A stretch of DNA of 64,000 bases from a virus, in the IMG/VR virus record IMGVR_UViG_3300012665_001507; one strand, given 5' to 3'. The position numbers and the translations under genes were made by a program. The notes under the pieces were generated by a model that saw only the letters and a list, made by a program, of their open reading frames with translations, was not told where the DNA came from and did no database searches. Shown in pieces: positions 2,637 through 29,360 of this stretch (positions are counted from its first letter, which is position 1; each line of letters starts with the position of its first letter).

Positions 2637-3155
2637 TTGTATAAAACCTTTTTTGATTAGTTCGTGAATATAGATGCTGTGAACAATGTTTTTCTCATTG
2701 GCATAACCAACAGACATGTGCATCCCAAAGTATGGTCTACCTAAGCCTAATTCGTTTCTGATACCTTGTAAACCATTTCTTTCATCATGTGGAATATTCA
2801 ACCACCATGTTCTATCATCGGTTTTTGGATTTAGGTCCAATACGATTTCAATTTCTTTACCATCCCATCGGTTCTTTACCTCTTCCCACGTATTTAAGGC
2901 TTCCTCTTCGCTTATTTCACCGTTCTTGGTCAAATCCCTCATGCTATCATTTATAAACGAAATATGGGCCCCTCTGATTGGTTTATTAAGTACTAGGCTA
3001 TATCTACGCATAATGAACCACGCATAGTATTCACAAATATCCCCGTCCAAGAGCACCATGGCTATTTTTTTCCACGATGATTGCCCTTGATGTTTTTTAG
3101 TCTTGTCTTCTGGTTCGAACTCAATCTTACCAGTAAGTGTTATTCTGTCTTTCAT
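2634..3155 (-). CDS. 2H phosphoesterase-like protein
   Basis: Two HxS motifs (AHISF, MHMSV) about 80 aa apart. Confidence 0.55.
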   Translation of the reverse strand: MKDRITLTGKIEFEPEDKTKKHQGQSSWKKIAMVLLDGDICEYYAWFIMRRYSLVLNKPIRGAHISFINDSMRDLTKNGEISEEEALNTWEEVKNRWDGKEIEIVLDLNPKTDDRTWWLNIPHDERNGLQGIRNELGLGRPYFGMHMSVGYANEKNIVHSIYIHELIKKGFIQ

Positions 3156-3181
3156 TATGATAAAATTTACGATTATAAATT

Positions 3182-4094: not shown

Positions 4095-5401
4095 TAGTTT
4101 CCAATCTCAATTAAATGTGATACAGTACATTGCTCTGGTTTGTAGACAATGAACTCATTGTTTCTAAGGTCAGCACCACCTTTGGCAAATACACTATCAT
4201 AACCATCTTTTTTCAATACGTTGTCCGATAATTTGTAACAACTTGAATCATGGTGTAATATTTCTTTTTGGTTACCCAAGTGAACATCAAACAATGCCAA
4301 GAAAGCTTTGTTATCACCACCATGTGCCCAATAAGAACCTCTCAATGATGAGTAACCGATAGATTTCTGTGCCTTGTCAGCAAAGTAGATACCATCACCA
4401 AACATCGAACCAGTATGAACTGCACCAGAAGGTCTGATAAGTAATCCAGTTTGTAAGATATTAAACCAGTTCTCGTTTCTTGAACCATGCCAGTAAAGAC
4501 GTTTCTTCTTAACACTAGCTTTCTCTAAGTTCTTGTCAAATTTAACTTGTGTCTTGTTGTTAACAACCTTATACACTTTTTTCATTTGATTTACGTTAGG
4601 TCCCATCAATTTCTTGATAAGGTCTAGTGTTTCGATGTCATTCTCAACTTCAATACTTAAACCCATTTGGTCTAGGATAGTTACTTCTTCAACTTCTTCT
4701 TCAACACCATTGGCTTCAGCTTCTGCTGCTTTTTTGGCGGCATCTTTTTGTTGTTTGATAAGTTCTACCTGTCCAGCCATTGTATCCAAAGCACTTTGCT
4801 CCGAACCAATTATTCTTTGAGCATTCTCCAAATCAGTATCCGAATTAACGTCACCAATCAAATGACTTTTAACGTTATCCATTCTTCTTGGGATAATAGT
4901 GTATAGTTTAAGTAACATATCATTGACATGTTTCTTATCCACACCCAACACCAACAAACTACTAATAGCGTTGATAACATCTTGAGCCGCATTTACTTGT
5001 TGCTCAGATACAGCTTCCTGTGTTACCTTATAATTTCTTTGGATTGATTTGTTAGCAAAAGACATCAACTCATCAACAAGTTTTCTAACAATCTCATCTT
5101 TGATACTATCAACTTTGTTGTTGACTGGTTTAGATTCATCCACAACTGGTTCAGCCAATAAATCAGTCACATCAGTGTAACCTTTTTTGTTAGAGGTTTT
5201 TTCTCTAACAATTTTATCCCATTCACGACTGCTTTTATAAACTGTCGTCATGTTTTTACCGACACGACCATATTCGCATTTGATTCTACCATCAGAAAGT
5301 TCTTCCATGATGTAGACCTTGTTACTATTGTCTGTCATTCCGTTATCTACAGATACGTGAATAAGTTTAGCGTATCTTAAACCATTTTCTTTTACTATCA
5401 T
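4094..5401 (-). CDS. PARP-family ADP-ribosyltransferase (WGR-like, regulatory and catalytic domains)
   Basis: YGRVG...KKGY WGR-like N-terminus; YTIIP regulatory motif; catalytic H-Y-E triad in HGSR, GDGIYFA, NEFIVY. Confidence 0.85.
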   Translation of the reverse strand: MIVKENGLRYAKLIHVSVDNGMTDNSNKVYIMEELSDGRIKCEYGRVGKNMTTVYKSSREWDKIVREKTSNKKGYTDVTDLLAEPVVDESKPVNNKVDSIKDEIVRKLVDELMSFANKSIQRNYKVTQEAVSEQQVNAAQDVINAISSLLVLGVDKKHVNDMLLKLYTIIPRRMDNVKSHLIGDVNSDTDLENAQRIIGSEQSALDTMAGQVELIKQQKDAAKKAAEAEANGVEEEVEEVTILDQMGLSIEVENDIETLDLIKKLMGPNVNQMKKVYKVVNNKTQVKFDKNLEKASVKKKRLYWHGSRNENWFNILQTGLLIRPSGAVHTGSMFGDGIYFADKAQKSIGYSSLRGSYWAHGGDNKAFLALFDVHLGNQKEILHHDSSCYKLSDNVLKKDGYDSVFAKGGADLRNNEFIVYKPEQCTVSHLIEIGN

Positions 5402-5418
5402 ACTTCCATAATTTTAAA

Positions 5419-5426
5419 CAAAGGTA
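5419..5426 (-). promoter_or_regulatory. Bacteroidota-type -7 promoter element TAnnTTTG (representative copy)
   Basis: TACCTTTG on minus strand; same motif at 8758, 11101, 11491, 17197, 20916, 23482, 24919, 27434, 28596, 35252, 36507, 57854 and others, and on plus at 17950 and 40953. Confidence 0.8.
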
Positions 5427-5454
5427 ATAAATAAATTTGAACTAACCAAATATT

Positions 5455-5547
5455 TTAAAACAATTTTTGGTCAATATCTTTTGGGAACATATCACATATG
5501 TGACGTTTCCACCATTTACTTAAAGCTAATTTGAGTTTTTTATACAT
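5455..5547 (-). CDS. Small ORF MYKKLKLALSKWWKRHICDMFPKDIDQKLF (30 aa)
   Basis: ATG abuts the upstream stop codon; below the ORF-track size cutoff. Confidence 0.45.
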   Translation of the reverse strand: MYKKLKLALSKWWKRHICDMFPKDIDQKLF

Positions 5548-5757
5548 TTACCACTTTTTTGTGACATCATCAAATAATGTCGGGTTTCCTGTAAGCCAGT
5601 TGTAGAATAAATCTTGCATCGCTGGTGGAACCATATGTCCATTAACGTAAACAACATCCATTACGATTTCGAGTTCTTGGCCAGCTGGAAGTGGCATATC
5701 TTTAGCCACTTCTGCCGCCTTTTTAAGTCTTAAGACTTTGTTTGTAATTTGTATCAT
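5548..5757 (-). CDS. Hypothetical protein
   Basis: ORF track, co-oriented with neighbours. Confidence 0.65.
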   Translation of the reverse strand: MIQITNKVLRLKKAAEVAKDMPLPAGQELEIVMDVVYVNGHMVPPAMQDLFYNWLTGNPTLFDDVTKKW

Positions 5758-5800
5758 ATTTTTATTTTAAATGTACAAATTATTTTAGGAAAATCAAGTC

Positions 5801-6841
5801 TTAAACCAATTTAAAAAACATATCTCTTACTTTTGCAGAGATGTATTTATTAACTTCTTTTGGTTCAATATTGTTCTCAACCATAGTATCCATTTCTTCT
5901 TTGATAACGTCATTAACCACCCATCTAATCACATCACCCAATTTCTTGGTATCGATAGGTTCTTGGTTAGGAAACGTATTTTCAATTGATTGGTTGAAAC
6001 GACTCTCAGTCACTGCATAGTCTACGAACTTTTGGATTGACTCCAATTTTTCAACGTCAACAGCAGCAAGTACTTTAACCTTGCTAGAAGAATGTTTTTC
6101 ACCTTTTACTTTGAATCTTTGAACAACACCCATGTATTCACAAGTCCACACAATACCTTCACCTACACCAGAGAAACCAAAAGCTTTGGCCACTGGACAT
6201 TCATCCTCAACTTCGATAGTCATATCGGACAATTGATTTTGAACCAATTGCGGCATGTTAAAATCGATATCAATTGTAAACGTTTTGAAGTTATCAATAT
6301 TGTAAATTTTCTTATCTGGTGCTTCCAAATAATGGTAACTAACCCAATATGCTGGGTTGTCTTTCAATTCTTCCTCTGTTTGAGTATGTGGTGTGATTTT
6401 AACACCAAAGATAAAGTAAGATTTTTCTAGGTTAGTAATACCAACACCTTTTTGGATGTTACCACCACACCATTCACCATAGATACTAACAGTGTTTGTT
6501 GTTAAATCTAAACCAGTTTCAGATTTTACTTGATTCATCAAATCAATAAACGTTTCTTTGTTTGCTTCAACAAAGAACGCAAAACCAGCGTTGTCTTTTT
6601 CTGGTGTGATAATGTTCTCACGAGATTGTGCCCAAAGACCTTCTACCTCATTGTAAGACACACCAGCATTAGTTCCATGTAATTTTACTGTCCCATGGAA
6701 CGTAAGTGTTGGTTTTTTAAGGCTAGGGTCATAAATTGCCTCACCATTTTCGTCCAAACCAACAAAATTGTATCGTCTATTAACATTAGAAACAACTGTT
6801 CTAAATTGTTCAATAGACGGGAATTTAATCATTTTTTTCAT
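5801..6841 (-). CDS. RNA ligase, Rnl2-like family
   Basis: Nucleotidyltransferase motifs KLHGTN, YGEW, GEGIV, FKVK. Confidence 0.8.
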   Translation of the reverse strand: MKKMIKFPSIEQFRTVVSNVNRRYNFVGLDENGEAIYDPSLKKPTLTFHGTVKLHGTNAGVSYNEVEGLWAQSRENIITPEKDNAGFAFFVEANKETFIDLMNQVKSETGLDLTTNTVSIYGEWCGGNIQKGVGITNLEKSYFIFGVKITPHTQTEEELKDNPAYWVSYHYLEAPDKKIYNIDNFKTFTIDIDFNMPQLVQNQLSDMTIEVEDECPVAKAFGFSGVGEGIVWTCEYMGVVQRFKVKGEKHSSSKVKVLAAVDVEKLESIQKFVDYAVTESRFNQSIENTFPNQEPIDTKKLGDVIRWVVNDVIKEEMDTMVENNIEPKEVNKYISAKVRDMFFKLV

Positions 6842-7338: not shown

Positions 7339-8736
7339 TTAAGATAAACCTAAAGCCGCATTTTGTATTTCAATACATTCTTCCAAAGAGTTGGCAACGC
7401 TCTTATCGTCTCTGAAGTGTTTAAACGCTGGATATAACAACGAATAAGCACCAGTATTATCAAACGAAAGACCAGAACATTTAACCTCGATGATTGTACC
7501 TAACAATGCATCTTGATTTTCAGTAATTTCTTTCATTAAATCTTCTTTCAATCCTTGTGGACGAGTTTTCAATAACCCACATGATGTTTCAGCGTTCAAT
7601 GAACTCACAACATTCTCATTCTTGGTTCCTTTGGTACCGTAATTAAAACCAGTAATCACCAAGTCCAAAGTCAACTCTAACTTCAATTTGATTTGCCACG
7701 TTGGTTTACCATCTTTCCACTCACCAGTCTGTGCTTTAAGGATAGTCCCTTCTTCACCACGACCTAACATATCTTTGAAGTGTTCCATCGCTTCTTCAAA
7801 CGTATTAACTTCTCTGTTTTCGATGATTGAAACCATAGCATTATCATTCTTGATAGTAGATAACGTTTCTGAAAGGTTTTTAAGCCTTACATTGTATGGT
7901 GTACTAGATTTAGTAGCATTATACTCATCAATAGTAATCATATCCCAAACAGTGTAACGGATTTTAGCCAAAGCAGCCTCAAAGCTACCATGCTTGTCTT
8001 CAAAAGTTAAGATTTTCTTGATGTTTTCTTCACTTGTTCTAGACTCACGTTTACCGCAGATATCAATGATTGATGCGATGATACCATTAGACTCATAACG
8101 AGGCACACCGTCCATTGTCAACTCACCATTAAGAACTACTTCGTTCAAATTAGCTAAGTCTTCAATCAACTTGGCACCAGTGATAATTGTTGGCTCACCT
8201 TGACGACTTTCCAAATAAACTTCACCGTTAACGATTGTTGCGTTGCAATAACGACCATCCATTTTAACTTGTGAATAACCTTTGGCACCTTTCTCAAACA
8301 ATTTACGTGCTTTCTTCTCATCAAACGATACAGCACCCATATAAGGTGTGTCTTCAATAAGGTTTTTGAATACTTTGTTCATGTTTGAAGTACCCATACC
8401 GATTTTACAATCTTTTTCAATGATACGTTCTAAGATATAAGCATCTTCTGGTTCAGTTATCGACAATAAATCAACCAAGTGAGCAACAGCAGCACTACCT
8501 GTAAGTGTTCTATCGCTAATCACTGATAACTCATCTAATGCTTCGTCCAATGATATTTTGTTTCTAGCATCAATGTATTCTGGTACTTGTTTGATGTAGA
8601 ATTTAACTCGTTTTGAATTGGCCAAGTACAATACACGTTTCAACAATTCATTGTCAGCGTATTTCCCTAAAATAACCATCTTTTGGTTTGTACCGCTTTC
8701 AGCAGCAATCTCGTCAAAAATTTCTTTGATTTTCAT
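7339..8736 (-). CDS. ATP-dependent DNA ligase
   Basis: KMDG, LNGEL, WD, EGTILK, KLK motifs plus OB-fold C-terminus; start placed at ATG 8736 downstream of the promoter at 8758. Confidence 0.9.
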   Translation of the reverse strand: MKIKEIFDEIAAESGTNQKMVILGKYADNELLKRVLYLANSKRVKFYIKQVPEYIDARNKISLDEALDELSVISDRTLTGSAAVAHLVDLLSITEPEDAYILERIIEKDCKIGMGTSNMNKVFKNLIEDTPYMGAVSFDEKKARKLFEKGAKGYSQVKMDGRYCNATIVNGEVYLESRQGEPTIITGAKLIEDLANLNEVVLNGELTMDGVPRYESNGIIASIIDICGKRESRTSEENIKKILTFEDKHGSFEAALAKIRYTVWDMITIDEYNATKSSTPYNVRLKNLSETLSTIKNDNAMVSIIENREVNTFEEAMEHFKDMLGRGEEGTILKAQTGEWKDGKPTWQIKLKLELTLDLVITGFNYGTKGTKNENVVSSLNAETSCGLLKTRPQGLKEDLMKEITENQDALLGTIIEVKCSGLSFDNTGAYSLLYPAFKHFRDDKSVANSLEECIEIQNAALGLS

Positions 8737-17961: not shown

Positions 17962-18936
17962 ATGAACATACTAATTACTGGAGGAATGGGATTCATTGGT
18001 TCTCACCTCGTTAAACACATGGTTGAAAAATACCCTAACTATCGTATCATAAATTACGACAAACTAACATATGCTAGTAACCCTAGATTTTTGCGTTCAC
18101 TAGATGATTACCCAAACTACCATTTTGTTATGGGTGACATATGTAATAATTCACAATTGGAAGACACATTCGCAAAATATAAAATAACACACGTTATACA
18201 CTTGGCGGCTGAATCACATGTAGATAACTCTATCTTTGACCCTTCAGCTTTCATCCAAACAAACATTGTTGGAACAGCTAACCTATTAACTATGTGTAGA
18301 AACAGATGGAGAGGCGATAACCATAAATTTTACCACATTTCAACTGATGAGGTTTATGGTTCTTTAGGTAGTGAAGGTTACTTTACCGAAGATACACCTT
18401 ATGACCCTAGAAGTCCTTATTCAGCGTCAAAAGCTAGTTCTGACCACTTGGTTCGAGCATATTTCCACACATATGGTTTCCCAGCAGTTATTTCAAACTG
18501 TTCAAATAACTATGGACCAAACCAACATAACGAAAAATTAATTCCTTTGACTATTCAACGAATCAAAGACCAAAAAGAAATTCCTGTTTACGGTGATGGA
18601 TTAAATGTTAGAGATTGGTTATATGTTGAAGACCATGTGTCTGCAATCGATACAATCTTCCATACTGGAGTAAATGGTGAAACATATAACATTGGCGGCA
18701 ATAACGAATCCACCAACATCAATTTGGTTAATAAACTATGTGATTTGATGGATTCCAAACTGGGTCGTGAACAAGGAACGTCACGAGGTTTGATTAGTTA
18801 CGTTAAAGATAGGTTAGGTCATGATAGGAGATATGCGATTGATTCATCCAAGCTAACCCAAGAACTTGGATGGGAACCTAAAACCGAATTTGAATTAGGG
18901 TTATCCAATACGATTGATTGGTATCTTAACGTCTAG
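17962..18936 (+). CDS. rfbB: dTDP-glucose 4,6-dehydratase
   Basis: GGMGFIG, DKLTYA, HLAAESHVD, STDEVYG, YSASK, GHDRRY; start ATG 17962. Confidence 0.95.
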   Translation: MNILITGGMGFIGSHLVKHMVEKYPNYRIINYDKLTYASNPRFLRSLDDYPNYHFVMGDICNNSQLEDTFAKYKITHVIHLAAESHVDNSIFDPSAFIQTNIVGTANLLTMCRNRWRGDNHKFYHISTDEVYGSLGSEGYFTEDTPYDPRSPYSASKASSDHLVRAYFHTYGFPAVISNCSNNYGPNQHNEKLIPLTIQRIKDQKEIPVYGDGLNVRDWLYVEDHVSAIDTIFHTGVNGETYNIGGNNESTNINLVNKLCDLMDSKLGREQGTSRGLISYVKDRLGHDRRYAIDSSKLTQELGWEPKTEFELGLSNTIDWYLNV

Positions 18937-19021
18937 CGGAGAGTGTGGGATTCGAACCCACGGGCCCCTTTCGAGGCCACGGTTTAGCAAACCGCTCCAT
19001 TAACCACTCTGGCAACTCTCC
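18937..19021 (-). tRNA. tRNA-Ser(GCT)
   Basis: Cloverleaf with long variable arm, loop TT-GCT-AA, G73. Confidence 0.93.
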
Positions 19022-19026
19022 AATTG

Positions 19027-19099
19027 TACCCCTACAGGGATTCGAACCCCGATACTGGCCTTAGAAGGGCCATGTCCTATCCAGTTGAACGATAGAGGC
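19027..19099 (-). tRNA. tRNA-Arg(TCT)
   Basis: Cloverleaf, loop CT-TCT-AA. Confidence 0.93.
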
Positions 19100-19110
19100 A
19101 TATTATGTTG

Positions 19111-19183
19111 TGACCCTACAGGGATTCGAACCCCGATTCTAGCATTCGTAGTGCTAAGTCCTATCCAGTTGAACGATAGGGCC
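19111..19183 (-). tRNA. tRNA-Arg(ACG)
   Basis: Cloverleaf, loop CT-ACG-AA; D and T arms shared with the neighbouring Arg(TCT). Confidence 0.93.
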
Positions 19184-19275
19184 AAATTATTGCGACACTT
19201 TGTCGTGATAATTGTCGCAATTTTATCTTTTTTCTTCTTTCTCGCCATAATCACGACATTTTGGCGAGATTCGAG

Positions 19276-19349
19276 TAGCGATAACTGGACTCGAACCAGT
19301 GTCTCTGCCTTATGAGAGCAGCGTAAGAAACCAACTCTACCATATCGCC
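19276..19349 (-). tRNA. tRNA-Met(CAT), elongator type
   Basis: Cloverleaf, loop CT-CAT-AA, GGCG acceptor with paired 1:72. Confidence 0.85.
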
Positions 19350-19354
19350 ATTTC

Positions 19355-19507
19355 TTATCTTTTAAAAATAATTTTATTCCGTTCAATCGCTTTCTTAATC
19401 CTTTCAACCTCTTCTTTACTCGGATTGGTATTAACCGAATAAGTTATCCCCATTTTATCCATGTAATCATAAAGACGTTGCATGTCAGCTTCACTTGTCT
19501 TTTTCAT
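19355..19507 (-). CDS. Small ORF within the tRNA array (50 aa, MKKTSEADMQRLYDYMDKMG...)
   Basis: Fills the spacer between two tRNAs exactly; A-rich leader. Confidence 0.55.
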   Translation of the reverse strand: MKKTSEADMQRLYDYMDKMGITYSVNTNPSKEEVERIKKAIERNKIIFKR

Positions 19508-19521
19508 TTTATTTATTTTTG

Positions 19522-19595
19522 CGGGGCCGCTGGGATTCGAACCCAGGTAAATGGATTAACAGTCCACCGTATTAGACCGCTGCTACGACAGCCCC
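19522..19595 (-). tRNA. tRNA-Asn(GTT), divergent body
   Basis: Cloverleaf, loop CT-GTT-AA, G73, short variable loop. Confidence 0.85.
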
Positions 19596-19602
19596 TTGTT
19601 TG

Positions 19603-19674
19603 CTCTTCGGGGGAATTTCGAAATCCCGACCTAACGGTTAACAGCCGTTTGCTCTGCCTCTGAGCTACCGAAGA
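19603..19674 (-). tRNA. tRNA-Asn(GTT)
   Basis: Cloverleaf, loop CT-GTT-AA, G73. Confidence 0.9.
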
Positions 19675-19679
19675 ATATT

Positions 19680-19756
19680 TGGTGGTCCATCTAGGATTCG
19701 AACCTAGGACCTTCTCGTTATGAGCGAGCTGCTCTAACCAACTGAGCTAAAAGACC
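19680..19756 (-). tRNA. tRNA(CAT), probably Ile2 (lysidine type), encoded CCA
   Basis: Cloverleaf, loop CT-CAT-AA, Ile-like D arm TAGCTCAGTTGGTTAGAGC, ends ACCA. Confidence 0.8.
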
Positions 19757-19818
19757 AAATATCTGTTATACTTGGCCAAAACTCGTTAAAAAAGTGAGTT
19801 TTGGCCGCTTATAAATTG

Positions 19819-19892
19819 TAGGCAACACGAGAGTCGAACTCGTAACCTCTTCGGTATCAGCGAAGTGCTCTAACCAGTTGAGCTAGCTGCCT
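19819..19892 (-). tRNA. tRNA-Ile(GAT)
   Basis: Cloverleaf, loop CT-GAT-AC. Confidence 0.92.
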
Positions 19893-19904
19893 ATGTTGGA
19901 AACC

Positions 19905-20099
19905 CTAAGATTTCCATTGTGTTTTTCTGTTGTGTTTCCACGTTCTAAATTCTCTCCATTTATGGTTTTCAATGTTTCCATGATTCCATGTCCACCCTTC
20001 TTCATAATATGGTGGGTACAATTCCAATAAGAGAATTCGTCTGTAATCTTTTGAGCAAGTTGCTTTTTTAAATTTTGCTCTGCTTACGTTTACACTCAT
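19905..20099 (-). CDS. Small basic protein (..RTWKHNRKTQWK)
   Basis: ORF track; inside the tRNA array; preceded by a 9-codon uORF. Confidence 0.6.
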   Translation of the reverse strand: MSVNVSRAKFKKATCSKDYRRILLLELYPPYYEEGWTWNHGNIENHKWREFRTWKHNRKTQWKS

Positions 20100-20127
20100 A
20101 ACTTCGTAGTCTATTGTTTAGTAGACC

Positions 20128-20154
20128 TCAAAGCATATCAAATTCTTTTTTCAT
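20128..20154 (-). promoter_or_regulatory. uORF MKKEFDML ending CTT-TGA, followed by a hairpin
   Basis: ATG AAA AAA GAA TTT GAT ATG CTT TGA, then GGTCTA..TAGACT stem ending 8 nt before the next ATG. Confidence 0.45.
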
Positions 20155-20167
20155 AACACTAATTTTG

Positions 20168-20238
20168 CACACCCACTAGGATTCGAACCTAGAACAACGG
20201 TTTTGGAGACCGTGATGATACCATTTCACCATGGATGT
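20168..20238 (-). tRNA. tRNA-Trp(CCA)
   Basis: Cloverleaf, loop CT-CCA-AA, G73. Confidence 0.92.
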
Positions 20239-20244
20239 ATTTTG

Positions 20245-20316
20245 GGTGTTAGGACGGTACCGAGCCGTCTTCTTTGGCTTCACAAACCAACACTTCACCT
20301 TAAAGCTTCAAACACC
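20245..20316 (-). tRNA. tRNA-His(GTG), divergent
   Basis: G-1:C73, loop TT-GTG-AA, atypical T loop CTCGGTA. Confidence 0.8.
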
Positions 20317-20325
20317 ATATACTAG

Positions 20326-20400
20326 GGTGGAAGATGGGTCTCGAACCCACGACCTTCTGAACCACAATCAGACGCTCTAACCAACTGAGCTACAACCACC
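20326..20400 (-). tRNA. tRNA-His(GTG)
   Basis: G-1:C73, loop TT-GTG-GT, canonical arms. Confidence 0.92.
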
Positions 20401-20409
20401 ATTTATTTG

Positions 20410-20499
20410 CGGAGAGAGTGGGACTCGAACCCACACATCCTTTTACAAACCCTCGGTTTTCAAGACCGCTGCCGCTAGGCCAACTCGGCTTACCTCTCC
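20410..20499 (-). tRNA. tRNA-Ser(TGA)
   Basis: Long variable arm, loop CT-TGA-AA, G73. Confidence 0.9.
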
Positions 20500-24191: not shown

Positions 24192-24437
24192 TCAAGGATA
24201 AATCCTTGCTATGTTATTTATGATTTCTAATTTGGCCTTGAATTTAATCGAACCCTTGGTGCTTGGATTGTCTGGTGTTTCTTTGGTTGAAAAGCCAATA
24301 CCAGAATCCATATCTACATGGTCAACATAGTATGTTTCACCCTTGACTTTGATTACCCACATTGGAATGTTGGTATCTTGCAAGTGCATCTTGTTGAAAT
24401 GGAAAATAATCTCGGTTCTTTTATCGATTTTAAGCAT
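24192..24437 (-). CDS. Hypothetical protein
   Basis: Overlaps the Pth2 stop (translational coupling). Confidence 0.65.
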   Translation of the reverse strand: MLKIDKRTEIIFHFNKMHLQDTNIPMWVIKVKGETYYVDHVDMDSGIGFSTKETPDNPSTKGSIKFKAKLEIINNIARIYP

Positions 24438-24780
24438 GACATACCTCCTTTCCTAGTAACGGACAAGAACTTGTCAACTTTCTAGCTCTATCGCTAGGTT
24501 CAAATGCTACTGCTGTGATTTCGTTGTTCAAGTCTGGTTCACGAAATAACGTGTACTTGATACCAGACACAAGAGCTTTGCTAATCAATTTGATTAACGC
24601 TTCTTCGTCAGCGACAGTCAGTAATGCTAAATAGTTTGAATTTTTTTGCCATTGTGTAGCTTCCTGTGGATGCTCATGTTGAAAATCAATGGCTGCGTGT
24701 GCAGATTGCACCGCTTGTGTAGAAATTTGTAGGTCACGTCTTGTGACAACTCTTAATTTTTGATTGTTAATCTATTTCAT
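24430..24780 (-). CDS. Peptidyl-tRNA hydrolase type 2 with in-frame TAG at codon 3
   Basis: ATG AAA TAG ATT... continues in frame to KLRVVTRRDL...AVQSAHAA (the Pth2 N-terminal signature) and FREPDL...TAVA. Confidence 0.75.
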
Positions 24781-24835
24781 CGTTTTTGTTTTTATATAAA
24801 TATATTACTTTAATTTAAAAAGTCAAATCTTTTTG

Positions 24836-24907
24836 TGATTCTAATGGGATTCGAACCCATGCCTAATGGTTTTAGAGGCCATCGTACTGCCGTTATACTA
24901 TAGAACC
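24836..24907 (-). tRNA. Amber suppressor tRNA (anticodon CTA)
   Basis: GGTTCTA/TAGAATC acceptor, GTAT/GTAC D stem, ATGGC-CTCTAAA-ACCAT anticodon arm, ATGGG-TTCGAAT-CCCAT T arm; own promoter at 24919. Confidence 0.88.
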
Positions 24908-26036: not shown

Positions 26037-26714
26037 TTATGCAAGTAATTCTAATTTTCCTCGTAAGATATCTTTCAAACTGGCTGTTTTATTGGTAAGG
26101 TGGTCAACAACAACACCATCTTTTACTCGATATGTTCTACGTTTGTCACTTCTATCACCCTTACCAATTTGTTCACGTCTTTCTTCAACCTCTTCAGAAG
26201 TATGACCTGTACGATAAAATTCATTTACACGTCTTTTAAGCTCTTTTAAAGCATCTTCTTTGTTCTTGTGTTGATTCCTTCCATCTCGAACTACTTTGAG
26301 CCCTGTAGCCACGTGTGTAACCACCACACAAGAATCTGTGGTGTTCTTATGTTGACCACCATTCCCAGTTCCTCTGGTTGTTTCCAAACGATATTCACTA
26401 GGATGTAATTCTACTTCCTTGTACTCGTTTTCCTCTAAAATTGCTACAGTAATTGAACTGGTATGAACTCTACCCTTTCTTTCGGTTGGTGGGACTCTTT
26501 GCCACCTGTGGTTTCCCACTTCGTTGCTAAAGACTTCTTTTACATTCTTGCCTGTTAGTCAGATACTAACAAACCCTAACCTATCTTCGGTTATCAGTCA
26601 GTCGATGTTATTGTTTTTCGCTGTTTTGATGTAAATGTCTCGCATTTCACAAACCAACAGCTTCGCATCGGTTCCACCCTCTGCATCACGGATTTCTAAT
26701 AAGATTTTTCCCAT
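26037..26714 (-). CDS. Class I release factor, RF1-like, lacking domain 1, with two in-frame TGA
   Basis: MGKILLEIRDAEGG...; TGA at codons 39 and 52; GNHRWQRVPPTE..GRVHTS (PxT), GGQ, RNQHKNK, RTY. Confidence 0.85.
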
Positions 26715-26742: not shown

Positions 26743-26769
26743 AAAAAACCCCATATCGCTATGAGGTTT
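26743..26769 (-). terminator. Intrinsic terminator closing the ncRNA operon
   Basis: AAACCTCATA-GCGA-TATGGGGTTTTTT; near-identical copy at 41408-41434. Confidence 0.7.
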
Positions 26770-26833: not shown

Positions 26834-26836
26834 TTG

Positions 26837-26908
26837 TAGCGGATGATGGACTCGAACCACCGACCTCAAGGTTATGAGCCTTGCGAGCTACCTCTGCTCT
26901 AATCCGCA
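26837..26908 (-). tRNA. tRNA-Met(CAT), initiator-like
   Basis: TGCGGAT/ATCCGCT acceptor with 1:72 mismatch, AGAGCAG..GGTAGCTCG D arm, loop CT-CAT-AA. Confidence 0.85.
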
Positions 26909-26915
26909 ATGTTAG

Positions 26916-26986
26916 ACTACTATAAAGGACTCGAACCTTTTACCCTCACCCCCATGGATGCCGCACTTCCCTCATGCTTATAGTAA
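26916..26986 (-). ncRNA. tRNA-like element without a canonical anticodon loop
   Basis: TTACTAT/ATAGTAG acceptor, GCAT/GTGC D stem, AAAGG-TTCGAGT-CCTTT T arm, aberrant anticodon arm. Confidence 0.6.
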
Positions 26987-28082: not shown

Positions 28083-28169
28083 ATTTTAAACAAAAAACCC
28101 TCAACAAAGCGACTTGTCAAGGGTTGTAATTTCTACCCCAAAGGCGGGCTGGGGAGAATCAATGGTGAG

Positions 28170-28521
28170 TGGAGATAAGGGGAATCGAACCCCTGTGTTG
28201 AACATTCTTCAAAAGCTTTCTACATGTTTAGGTCATAGTTTGTGAAACTATCCGAAATTTTGCAACATTTACGGCTACTTGCTCTCCTAGTAGAGTACTA
28301 CCATCAATGGACTACCATTATTTAGTGGTTTACCACCATTTGCAATAATTAGGCTACTGCTACCTCTCCAGCGAAACTACATGTAGCTTCAGTAAGGAAA
28401 TTTTCTGATACGATAAAATCGTTGTCAATTCATTGTTTTAATAGACAGATTAAAGTGCTTCCAATCTAGCACTACATGCTTACAGTTTACGACTATATTC
28501 AGTCAATACCGTGGTATCCCC
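28170..28521 (-). ncRNA. ssrA: tmRNA
   Basis: 5' GGGGATA..TTGAC; 3' CAGGGGTTCGATTCCCCTTATCTCCA with G3:U70; internal ORF DNDFIVSENFLTEATCSFAGEVAVA* (28349-28426). Confidence 0.9.
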
Positions 28522-28637: not shown

Positions 28638-29360
28638 TTATTTTTTTGTTTTTGTTGTAATAATTCCATCAACAATACCGTAAGCCAAAGCTTCTTCAGC
28701 ATCTAACCATAAATCACGGCTAGCATCTTCCATAACTTGTTTTGGGTCTTTGTCAGTATATTGACCTAACAATCCAAATAACTTATCGTTATATTTCTCA
28801 CCTTCGGCAATTGAACGTCTAATGTCTTGAATGTTACCAGAAGCACCTGTTGATACTTGGTGTAACATAACTCTAGAGTTTGGTAACATGTAACGCTTAC
28901 CTTTGGTTCCAGCACCTAATAGGATACTACCCATACTTGCCGCCATACCTGTGTTGATAGTTACGATATCAGATGAGATGTAGTTCATTACGTCAACGAT
29001 TGATAACCCAGATTTAACTGAACCACCTGGACTGTCTACGTGAAGTGTGATATCTCTTACTTCTAAATTATCCATAAACATCAACTGTGCTTGCACCACT
29101 GTACTCATTCTATCGTTAACTGGACCAGCTAACCAAATGATTCTATCCATCATCAATCGAGAGAAGATATCCATTTGCGTTACACGCATTTCTCTTTCTT
29201 CCAAGATGTAAGGTGTCAAAGAAGCGTTAGCTCCTTGAAACGTTGACATAACGCTTGGGTTATATATTGAGTTTTGTAATCGTTCCCAATTAGCAAACTC
29301 ATATTCTGTAACACCAATATGTTTCGTGGCGTATTCTTTAAATTCGTTTGTGTAATTCAT
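28638..29360 (-). CDS. clpP: ATP-dependent Clp protease proteolytic subunit
   Basis: DIFSRLMMDRII, SPGGSV, AASMGS, MLHQ, RDLWL. Confidence 0.95.
   Translation of the reverse strand: MNYTNEFKEYATKHIGVTEYEFANWERLQNSIYNPSVMSTFQGANASLTPYILEEREMRVTQMDIFSRLMMDRIIWLAGPVNDRMSTVVQAQLMFMDNLEVRDITLHVDSPGGSVKSGLSIVDVMNYISSDIVTINTGMAASMGSILLGAGTKGKRYMLPNSRVMLHQVSTGASGNIQDIRRSIAEGEKYNDKLFGLLGQYTDKDPKQVMEDASRDLWLDAEEALAYGIVDGIITTKTKK

What the first reader, a model, noticed from the sequence alone, without database searches (positions are those of the whole stretch)
26037..26714. Domain-1-less RF1-like release factor gated by two in-frame UGA codons
Seen: the ORF track starts at 26519, but the frame extends to ATG 26714 (MGKILLEIRDAEGGTDAKLL, matching the RF domain-2 EIRxxxGG motif) across TGA at codon 39 (26598-26600) and codon 52 (26559-26561). 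Both sit in the same context, C-TGA-CT(G/A). PxT (PPT) and GGQ are intact. TGA is an ordinary stop elsewhere in this window (e.g. 3891, 20992, 24192, 30548), so this is not genome-wide recoding. Established: PxT marks UAA/UAG specificity, prfB is autoregulated through an internal UGA plus frameshift, and UGA-C is a leaky context. Inference: full-length factor is made only when UGA termination (host RF2) fails, giving a double read-through sensor, or autoregulation if this factor can also read UGA.
Basis: partly seen in the sequence, partly recalled or inferred. Interest (0 to 1): 0.88.

Follow-up and report, generated by a model that had tools for sequence, protein, structure and literature searches.

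The report
Stop-codon-gated short phage release factor
A giant phage carries a shortened RF1-type translation-termination factor whose gene can be read in full only if the ribosome passes two internal UGA stop codons. About 100 related phage genes keep a stop codon or a prfB-style frameshift in the same short stretch, so this is a selected control device and not a broken gene.

Summary
Window 26037-26714 (-) encodes a 225-codon RF1-like protein with PPT and GGQ motifs and no domain 1. It is interrupted by TGA at codons 39 and 52 and ends in TAA.

It is not a pseudogene, an assembly error or a changed genetic code:
- dN/dS before the first TGA (0.08-0.27) matches that after the second (0.08-0.17).
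- The phage and three near-complete relatives use the standard code, with TGA ending 6-13% of genes.
- None of them has a tRNA with a UCA anticodon.

Of 112 related loci (40-96% identity), 99 carry a recoding event, nearly all within codons 37-54:
- 75 have in-frame TGA only.
- 7 also have an in-frame TAG.
- 17 have a +1 frameshift at CTT-TAG-C (16) or CTT-TGA-C (1), the bacterial prfB motif.

The in-frame TGAs sit in weak-termination contexts. None of 118 is followed by T, against 49% of real TGA terminators. A following Leu is always CTN, although TTR makes up about 70% of Leu codons genome-wide.

Best reading: programmed double UGA read-through ties synthesis of the factor to poor termination. 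Whether host RF2 or the factor itself is sensed is open.

I found no published description. This scan has noted the same theme on other DNA (e1-3258985, e1-5362146, e1-5745608, e1-5617980).

The parts
26037..26714 (-). Full read-through reading frame of the short RF1-type release factor (225 codons, ATG to TAA)
   Evidence: The AF2 model has pLDDT 85 and TMq 0.92-0.93 to ribosome-bound RF1.
26598..26600 (-). In-frame TGA no. 1 (codon 39), context GAC TGA CTG
   Evidence: TGA sits at the same aligned codon in 28 of the aligned relatives.
26559..26561 (-). In-frame TGA no. 2 (codon 52), context ATC TGA CTA
   Evidence: At this aligned codon, 53 relatives have TGA and 5 have TAG. In the frameshift forms it is the TGT/TGC that precedes CTT-TAG-C.
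26553..26606 (-). Recoding hot zone, codons 37-54: a beta-hairpin of domain 2 (strands 38-45 and 48-55)
   Evidence: Almost all in-frame stops and shift sites of the 112 loci fall here. It aligns to E. coli RF2 residues 161-184, which include E167 and E170.
26667..26678 (-). GGTD (codons 13-16) at the tip of the codon-reading helix. The Asp is invariant in the family where the RF1 and RF2 sequences I compared have Glu.
   Evidence: Alignments A1 and A2. Comparison with T. maritima RF1 and E. coli RF2.
26484..26492 (-). PPT tripeptide (RF1-type PxT) within WQRVPPTERKGRVHTS
   Evidence: The tripeptide is PPT in nearly all relatives and SPT in a few.
26352..26360 (-). GGQ peptidyl-tRNA hydrolysis motif
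   Evidence: invariant in the family.
26037..26039 (-). True terminator TAA
   Evidence: In the six genes checked (the window and five huge-phage homologues), every terminator is TAA.
26746..26769 (-). Terminator-like hairpin plus T-run, 32 nt upstream of the ATG. It ends the upstream tRNA and structured-RNA unit.
26836..26908 (-). tRNA-Met(CAT) immediately upstream. It keeps this position relative to the release-factor gene in most close relatives.
20167..20238 (-). Phage tRNA-Trp(CCA), the most likely near-cognate reader of UGA (candidate only). Its D-stem has U11-A24.
   Evidence: One tRNA-Trp(CCA) is present in each of G001, G002 and G004.
24835..24907 (-). Amber-suppressor tRNA (anticodon CTA), 1.1 kb downstream. 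It is context only, because it reads UAG and not UGA.
   Evidence: It keeps this position in many relatives.

Best explanation
The gene encodes a compact RF1-type class I release factor with domains 2-4 only. Its synthesis is gated by programmed read-through of two leaky UGA codons placed in a variable beta-hairpin early in the protein. Ribosomes normally stop at UGA-39 or UGA-52 and release a short peptide. When UGA termination is slow, a near-cognate tRNA decodes both codons and the full factor is made. That tRNA is most likely Trp-tRNA(CCA), which the phage also encodes. Two gates in series make the response steep. The output is extra termination capacity for UAA and UAG, which end about 90% of the phage's genes. 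This is the read-through counterpart of the prfB frameshift switch. Shown here: the stops are real, conserved, context-selected and flanked by sequence under purifying selection; the phage uses the standard code; no cognate tRNA exists; relatives use interchangeable devices at the same place. Inferred: the inserted residue, that host RF2 is the factor sensed, and the codon specificity of the product.
For: (1) The stops are conserved. Of 112 loci, 99 are recoded, and almost all stops or shift sites fall in codons 37-54. Only two odd stops occur in the other ~170 codons.
(2) Purifying selection acts on both sides of the stops: dN/dS is 0.08-0.27 for codons 1-38 and 0.08-0.17 for codons 53-225.
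(3) The context is selected. After in-frame TGA the next base is A 62, C 55, G 1, T 0. After real TGA terminators it is T 66, A 46, G 12, C 10 (Fisher p about 1e-13 on distinct contexts). A following Leu is CTN in 24 of 24 distinct contexts, although TTR is 68-79% of Leu codons genome-wide. The base before TGA is weakly enriched for C.
(4) Relatives carry other devices at the same site: in-frame TAG, and TG[TC] CTT TAG C or CTT TGA C +1 shift sites that are conserved amid diverged flanks. These are termination-rate sensors by design, as in prfB (PMC12421855).
(5) The code is standard. Under code 11, 86-92% of the DNA is coding, stop usage is TAA about 80%, TGA 6-13% and TAG 9-12%, and there are essentially no in-frame stops in about 400 conserved genes per genome.
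(6) No UCA-anticodon tRNA was found in the window or in three near-complete relatives, even at relaxed thresholds.
(7) There is no conserved restart codon after the last stop (12 of 75 sequences have one, at scattered positions) and no conserved 3' RNA structure.
(8) In two clades TGA sits where Trp is expected: L133 at the W of HRW, and L161-L163 at the W of the bacterial KGW.
(9) The product is RF1-like. QRVPxTE..GRxHTS and GGQ are kept, and the model superposes on ribosome-bound RF1.
Against: Nothing was measured experimentally. Two near-cognate read-throughs in series would normally give well under 1% full-length product, so either basal UGA termination in the unknown host is weak or an undetected helper exists. 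An RF1-type product does not close a feedback loop on UGA, whereas in prfB the in-frame stop always matches the factor's own specificity (PMC12421855). At codons 39, 44 and 52, relatives without TGA never have TGG; they have V/Y/C/A/L, E/D and C/E/K. So Trp is not indicated at these particular positions.
Confidence: 0.5

Rival explanations
1. Closed-loop autoregulation. The phage factor itself also recognises UGA (broadened or omnipotent specificity), so it terminates on its own mRNA when abundant, exactly as RF2 does on prfB. One gene then covers all three stop codons for the phage.
For: TGA and TAG are interchangeable at the same codon, and in the shift motif, among relatives that share the same PPT loop. 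Each phage carries only this one release-factor gene and no RF2-type copy. The family has an invariant Asp where the RF1 and RF2 sequences I compared have Glu in the codon-contacting GGxE tip. The recoding zone aligns with the RF2 hairpin where E167K and E170K broaden specificity (PMC7530605). A few members have SPT.
Against: All RF1-type recognition residues (Q..PxT..HTS) are kept. In this sample the frameshift forms use TAG in 16 of 17 cases, the mirror of prfB for an RF1-specific factor. The role of the Glu-to-Asp change is recalled from structural papers and was not tested.
Confidence: 0.22
2. Timed switch. The UGAs are decoded efficiently at a set stage of infection by something not detected here, such as an unusual tRNA, a tRNA modification or a phage inhibitor of RF2. 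This would parallel the amber-gated genes served by the phage's CTA tRNA.
For: The same window has an amber-suppressor tRNA and a Pth2 gene with an early TAG (note e1-5878211). Odd tRNA-like genes occur nearby and in relatives.
Against: No UCA anticodon was found in three near-complete genomes. TGA still ends 6-13% of phage genes, so global suppression would be costly. Selection for a weak-termination context fits competition with a release factor better than it fits a dedicated decoder.
Confidence: 0.12
3. Fixed attenuator. The stops only hold the yield of a potentially toxic factor at a very low constant level, and nothing is sensed.
For: RF overproduction is harmful in bacteria (PMC12421855). 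Two stops give strong damping.
Against: A weak promoter or start site would achieve the same. Repeated use of prfB-type shift sites at the same place in relatives points to a termination-responsive design.
Confidence: 0.08
4. Artefact or decay: a pseudogene, a sequencing error, genome-wide TGA reassignment (code 4 or 25), or two separately translated fragments.
For: The ORF caller sees only a 160-codon ORF.
Against: Independent assemblies agree. dN/dS is low upstream of the stops. The code is standard and TGA is used as a terminator. No restart codon is conserved.
Confidence: 0.03

Closest known systems
Bacterial prfB (RF2) autoregulatory +1 programmed frameshift (SD-like AGGGGG, 3 nt, CUU UGA C)
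   Same: Both are release-factor genes interrupted early by an in-frame stop in a weak (C at +4) context, so that full-length synthesis rises when termination is slow. Relatives of the window gene carry the literal CUU-stop-C shift motif.
   Different: The window gene keeps its frame, so it needs read-through and not a shift. It has two stops, at codons 39 and 52 of a domain-1-less protein, where prfB has one at codon 26. There is no SD-like stimulator. The factor is RF1-type while the stop is UGA. In bacteria no programmed frameshift was found in prfA, and TAG never occurs in the prfB motif (PMC12421855), whereas 16 phage relatives use CUU-UAG-C.
Programmed UGA read-through in RNA phage Qbeta (coat to A1 protein; recalled from textbooks, not re-read here)
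   Same: A leaky UGA is decoded at low frequency by near-cognate Trp-tRNA, without a dedicated suppressor.
   Different: In Qbeta the read-through extends a complete protein to make a second product. Here the stops lie inside a single essential fold, and the terminated product is a 38- or 51-residue stub.
Code-change modules of stop-codon-recoded phages (suppressor tRNA, aaRS and RF1/RF2; Borges et al., bioRxiv 10.1101/2021.08.26.457843)
   Same: Both involve a phage-encoded class I release factor next to a suppressor tRNA within a translation module.
   Different: Those release-factor genes are reported to be written in the standard code without internal stops, and they serve a genome-wide late-gene recoding. 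This phage uses the standard code throughout, and the release-factor gene is the one that carries the stops.
PrfH (RF-H), the domain-1-less release-factor paralogue paired with RtcB
   Same: It also lacks the N-terminal domain 1 and keeps domains 2-4 with GGQ.
   Different: PrfH lacks the PxT or SPF tripeptide and sits in an operon with RtcB. The window protein scores 70 bits against a 167-bit cut-off, and its model fits PrfH much less well (TMq 0.66) than RF1 (0.92).

Membership tests
Class I release factor RF1 (prfA; NF001859, TIGR00019) | RF-1 (GGQ) domain and PCRF codon-recognition domain | tested here: met
   Pfam RF-1 1e-23 and PCRF 3e-16. GGQ is present at codons 119-121.
Class I release factor RF1 (prfA; NF001859, TIGR00019) | PxT tripeptide with flanking Q..E..GR.HTS recognition residues | tested here: met
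   WQRVPPTERKGRVHTS aligns with the RF1 QRVPVTE..GRIHTS.
Class I release factor RF1 (prfA; NF001859, TIGR00019) | Full length with N-terminal domain 1, scoring above the curated equivalog cut-off | tested here: not met
   200 bits against a 400-bit cut-off. Only profile positions 105-333 are matched, and only 7 codons are open upstream.
Class I release factor RF1 (prfA; NF001859, TIGR00019) | Peptide release at UAA and UAG but not UGA | not testable with these tools
   Needs an in vitro release assay.
prfB-type autoregulatory recoding | In-frame premature stop early in a release-factor gene, in a weak context | tested here: met
prfB-type autoregulatory recoding | CUU-stop-C slippery site with a +1 frame change | tested here: not met
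   The window gene stays in frame. The feature is met in 17 relatives.
prfB-type autoregulatory recoding | SD-like stimulator 3 nt upstream of the shift site | tested here: not met
   No purine-rich block lies upstream of either TGA or of the relatives' shift sites.
prfB-type autoregulatory recoding | The stop is cognate to the encoded factor | tested here: inconclusive
   A PPT loop predicts UAA/UAG, yet the stops are UGA. The factor's specificity is unmeasured.
Stop-codon reassignment (code 4 or 25) | TGA inside many genes at conserved Trp or Gly positions, rare use as a terminator, and a UCA tRNA | tested here: not met
Programmed stop-codon read-through | Conserved in-frame stop, coding constraint on both sides, leaky context | tested here: met
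Programmed stop-codon read-through | Demonstrated full-length product | not testable with these tools
PrfH (TIGR03072) | Score above the cut-off, no tripeptide, RtcB neighbour | tested here: not met
   70 bits against 167. PPT is present. The neighbours are tRNAs, tmRNA, ClpP and Pth2.
ArfB | GGQ domain with a C-terminal tail and no codon-recognition domain | tested here: not met
   22 bits against 100. The PCRF domain is present.

The most novel reading that the evidence does not exclude
The short phage factor may be a single, compact bacterial-type release factor that reads UGA as well as UAA and UAG. Its PPT loop, its invariant Asp in place of the canonical Glu, and the loss of domain 1 would all be part of this. 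Its gene would then be under closed-loop control by whichever stop codon sits in the hairpin. That hairpin corresponds to the RF2 region where E167K and E170K broaden specificity, so the residue inserted at UGA could itself tune what the factor recognises.
Probability: 0.15. Interest if true: 0.92.

Novelty: new variant of a known kind. Interest (0 to 1): 0.78.

Why it matters
Autoregulatory recoding of a release-factor gene has rested on one textbook case, prfB. A 2025 survey of 12,753 bacterial genomes found no such device in prfA and never found TAG in the prfB motif (PMC12421855).

This phage family shows that the principle is more general. An RF1-type gene is gated by one or two leaky UGAs, by UAG, or by CUU-UAG-C and CUU-UGA-C frameshifts, and lineages swap these devices within one 18-codon hairpin.

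That gives a natural comparison series for how read-through and frameshifting sense termination rates. It also yields a minimal domain-1-less release factor for structural and specificity work. Finally, it suggests that giant phages monitor and top up the termination capacity of the infected cell. For annotation, these genes are routinely truncated by gene callers.

Tried and rejected
- Genome-wide recoding: rejected from coding density under five codes, stop-codon usage, and cross-genome tblastn for in-frame stops in conserved genes. After keeping only the longest non-overlapping ORFs, almost nothing remained. A junction-spanning scan mostly picked up adjacent genes in the same frame and was not informative.
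- Dedicated UGA tRNA: not found with ARAGORN at default settings, with introns allowed, or at an 85% threshold, in the window or in three relatives. Rfam found only ordinary tRNAs and a tmRNA. The tRNA-like element at 26915-26986 is called Pro(GGG), and only at the relaxed threshold.
- The weak CTA tRNA call in G004 has a poor structure and I treat it as a false positive.
- Stimulatory RNA structure 3' of the stops: RNAalifold found no consensus over 51 sequences. The window's own local fold has a z-score of only about -2.3.
- Link between recoding type and presence of the amber-suppressor tRNA: none, because CTA tRNAs occur next to both read-through and frameshift forms.
- Link between the tripeptide and the stop type: none.
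- Upstream in-frame extensions in L092 and L098 are not domain 1. L092's is a zinc-finger/DUF723 gene in the same frame.
- The whole genome of the window is not held.
- The careful tree search did not finish in time, so only the quick tree was used. The number of independent switches between recoding types is therefore uncertain.

Full report
**1. What is in the window**

The minus-strand frame from ATG 26714 to TAA 26037 has 225 codons. It is interrupted by TGA at codon 39 (26598-26600, GAC TGA CTG) and at codon 52 (26559-26561, ATC TGA CTA). The ORF list reports only the 160-codon ORF that starts at GTG 26519.

Read through, the product matches Pfam PCRF (profile positions 101-194 only) and RF-1. 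Its best NCBIfam match is prfA, over profile positions 105-333 and far below the equivalog cut-off. RF2, PrfH and ArfB score much lower.

It aligns to T. maritima RF1 residues 87-314 and keeps QRVPxTE..GRxHTS (here PPT) and GGQ. An AlphaFold model built on 40 relatives has a mean pLDDT of 85. It superposes on ribosome-bound RF1 at TMq 0.92-0.93 and rmsd 1.5-1.8 Å, against 0.66 for PrfH.

Only 7 codons are open upstream of the ATG. Before them lie a terminator-like hairpin (26746-26769) and tRNA-Met (26836-26908), so no domain 1 can be encoded.

The gene sits in a translation and ribosome-rescue block:
- ClpP (28638-29360)
- tmRNA (28167-28521)
- an amber-suppressor tRNA (24835-24907)
- a Pth2 gene with an early TAG (24430-24771)
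- tRNA-Cys
- a 12-tRNA array (18936-20499)

**2. Not an error, a pseudogene or a different code**

- Contigs from independent samples at 96% identity (L006, L086) carry both TGAs.
- Among full-length gapless relatives, dN/dS is 0.08-0.27 for codons 1-38 and 0.08-0.17 for codons 53-225. The part before the first stop is therefore maintained as protein in this frame.
- Only 12 of 75 distinct sequences have any ATG, GTG or TTG within 15 codons after the last stop, and at scattered positions. A separately initiated C-terminal fragment is therefore not a conserved feature.
- ORFs of at least 100 codons cover 86% of the window under code 11, and freeing TGA adds little.
- I fetched three related genomes in full: G001 at 362 kb and G002 at 362 kb, both rated 100% complete, and G004 at 318 kb, rated 96%. 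They are 88-92% coding under code 11. Stop usage is TAA about 80%, TGA 6-13% and TAG 9-12%.
- After spurious antisense ORFs were removed, a cross-genome tblastn found essentially no in-frame stops in about 400 conserved genes per genome.
- No tRNA with a UCA anticodon exists in the window or in the three genomes, even at relaxed ARAGORN settings.
- Each phage has one release-factor gene and no RF2-type copy.

**3. The family pattern**

Homologues turned up in three places:
- five 595-735 kb phage genomes in GenBank
- 26 IMG/VR loci
- 80 of at least 566 metagenome hits

That makes 112 loci with the window, or 102 distinct sequences, at 40-96% identity. All lack domain 1 and nearly all have PPT. 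All have GGxD, where the RF1 and RF2 sequences I compared have GGxE.

Ninety-nine of the 112 are recoded:
- 41 have one in-frame TGA.
- 34 have two in-frame TGAs.
- 7 also have an in-frame TAG. In the L024 clade it replaces TGA at the window's codon 52.
- 17 have a +1 frameshift.
- 13 have none. These lie mostly in one clade, and some are partial hits.

The frameshift sites read TG[TC] CTT TAG C in 15 cases, GGA CTT TAG C at a different codon in L144, and TGT CTT TGA C in L030. The motif is invariant while the flanks have diverged to about 42% identity.

Apart from two singletons (L133 codon 71, L153 codon 182), every stop or shift lies in query codons 37-54. In the model these are the two strands of one beta-hairpin (38-45 and 48-55). 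On a quick tree the frameshift forms are interleaved with read-through forms in the window's own clade, but the branch supports do not force more than one origin.

**4. Selection on context**

The base after 118 in-frame TGAs is A (62), C (55), G (1) and never T. After 134 genuine TGA terminators in the same genomes it is T (66), A (46), G (12) and C (10).

Where the next residue is Leu, it is coded CTN in all 24 distinct contexts, mostly the rare CTG and CTA. Genome-wide, TTA and TTG make up 68-79% of Leu codons. The base before TGA is modestly enriched for C, and ATC is used for the preceding Ile more often than expected (p = 0.02).

No conserved RNA structure follows the stop. The signal is therefore a short local context of the kind known to weaken termination.

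**5. Which residue goes in?**

Relatives without TGA never have TGG at these codons. The residues vary: V/Y/C/A/L at 39, E/D at 44, and C/E/K/F at 52. These positions therefore tolerate many residues, unlike a code-4 pattern.

Two clades do place TGA where Trp is expected. L133 has it at the W of HRW, and L161-L163 have it at the position of the bacterial KGW tryptophan. This weakly favours Trp insertion by the CCA tRNA.

The phage's own tRNA-Trp has U11-A24 in the D-stem. From memory, that is the state of the E. coli Hirsh UGA suppressor, but it is also common in ordinary tRNAs, so I give it little weight.

**6. Mechanism**

The simplest account that fits all of this is a termination-sensitive gate. 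Full-length factor is made in proportion to the square of UGA read-through, so it is nearly off when UGA termination is efficient and rises steeply when it is not. The frameshift relatives are the same idea implemented as in prfB.

What is sensed remains open. On sequence the product is RF1-type, which predicts that host RF2 is the sensed factor (an open loop). Extra UAA and UAG capacity would still relieve RF2, because about 80% of phage genes end in TAA.

Several observations keep alive the alternative that the factor also reads UGA and regulates itself:
- TGA and TAG are interchangeable at one codon and in the shift motif.
- The phage carries only a single release-factor gene.
- The family has an invariant Glu-to-Asp change at the helix tip that contacts the stop codon.
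- The hot zone aligns with E. coli RF2 residues 161-184, which include E167 and E170. The E167K and E170K substitutions let RF2 read UAG and UGG (PMC7530605).

If the host is a Bacteroidota species, as the SD-less A-rich leaders and low TGA usage suggest, RF2-dependent termination may be intrinsically weak. PMC12421855 notes low prfB shift efficiency and 7% TGA stops in F. johnsoniae. That would make double read-through less improbable.

**7. Comparison with what is known**

- PMC12421855 states that programmed frameshifting has been shown for prfB but not prfA. It found no credible case in 12,753 genomes, and TAG never occurred in the prfB motif among 8,164 genomes.
- The phage recoding survey (bioRxiv 10.1101/2021.08.26.457843) reports phage RF1 and RF2 genes written in the standard code.
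- The huge-phage paper (PMC7162821) only lists RF1 and RF2 among translation genes.
- The release-factor evolution review (PMC6514570) does not mention phage factors.

I found no description of stop-gated phage release factors.

Earlier notes of this scan describe the same theme on other DNA: a UGA-gated short release factor in a temperate phage, CUU-UGA-C forms, and a tandem CUU-UAG-C/CUU-UGA-C form. My family survey agrees with them. It adds the hot-zone mapping, the context statistics, the whole-genome code and tRNA controls, and the mapping onto the RF2 specificity hairpin.

**8. Verdict**

I rate it a new variant of a known kind, with interest 0.78.

Noticed in passing
L016:2954-8017 (= G001, a 362-kb relative): A second, more window-like release-factor gene is split. 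Residues 1-~73, with both TGAs, lie at 2954-3163, and residues 119-225, starting at GGQ, lie at 7697-8017. Between them is a ~4.5 kb insert carrying a zinc-finger ORF, a complete paralogous release-factor gene with one TGA, and a 515-aa HATPase_c_3 protein. This looks like an island that disrupted the resident gene and brought its own copy.
   Followed up: partly
L144:~2180-2215: The CTT TAG C +1 shift motif occurs at a different codon (about residue 33-40) from the other 16 frameshift forms. This suggests an independent origin of the same device.
   Followed up: no
L133 (codon 71 of the family alignment): An extra in-frame TGA replaces the conserved Trp of HRWQRVPPT (CGC TGA ATA). It is the clearest hint that UGA is read as Trp in these genes.
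   Followed up: no
L021:2487-2563; G001:5320-5393: ARAGORN calls tRNAs with four-base anticodons (CCTA next to the release-factor gene in L021, AGAC in G001). CCTA would pair with UAGG, which makes it a possible quadruplet or frameshift-type decoder.
   Followed up: no
window 26915-26986 (-): A tRNA-like element lies directly upstream of tRNA-Met and the release-factor gene. It has an acceptor arm and a T arm but an aberrant middle. ARAGORN calls it Pro(GGG) only at a relaxed threshold, and its fold is no better than shuffled sequence.
   Followed up: partly
window 24430-24771 (-) and 24835-24907 (-): A Pth2-family gene matches Pfam only when an early TAG is read as sense. The amber-suppressor tRNA lies just upstream of it, and this arrangement is kept in many relatives.
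   Followed up: partly
G004 (318 kb, 96% complete); release-factor gene at 5310-5984: This clade has an in-frame TAG at the window's codon 52 (ATT TAG CTG), yet no credible CTA tRNA was found in the genome. The only candidate, at 290246-290326, folds poorly.
   Followed up: partly
L092:1521-2417: A treble-clef zinc-finger/DUF723 gene, possibly a homing endonuclease, runs in the same frame straight into the release-factor gene with no intervening stop.
   Followed up: no
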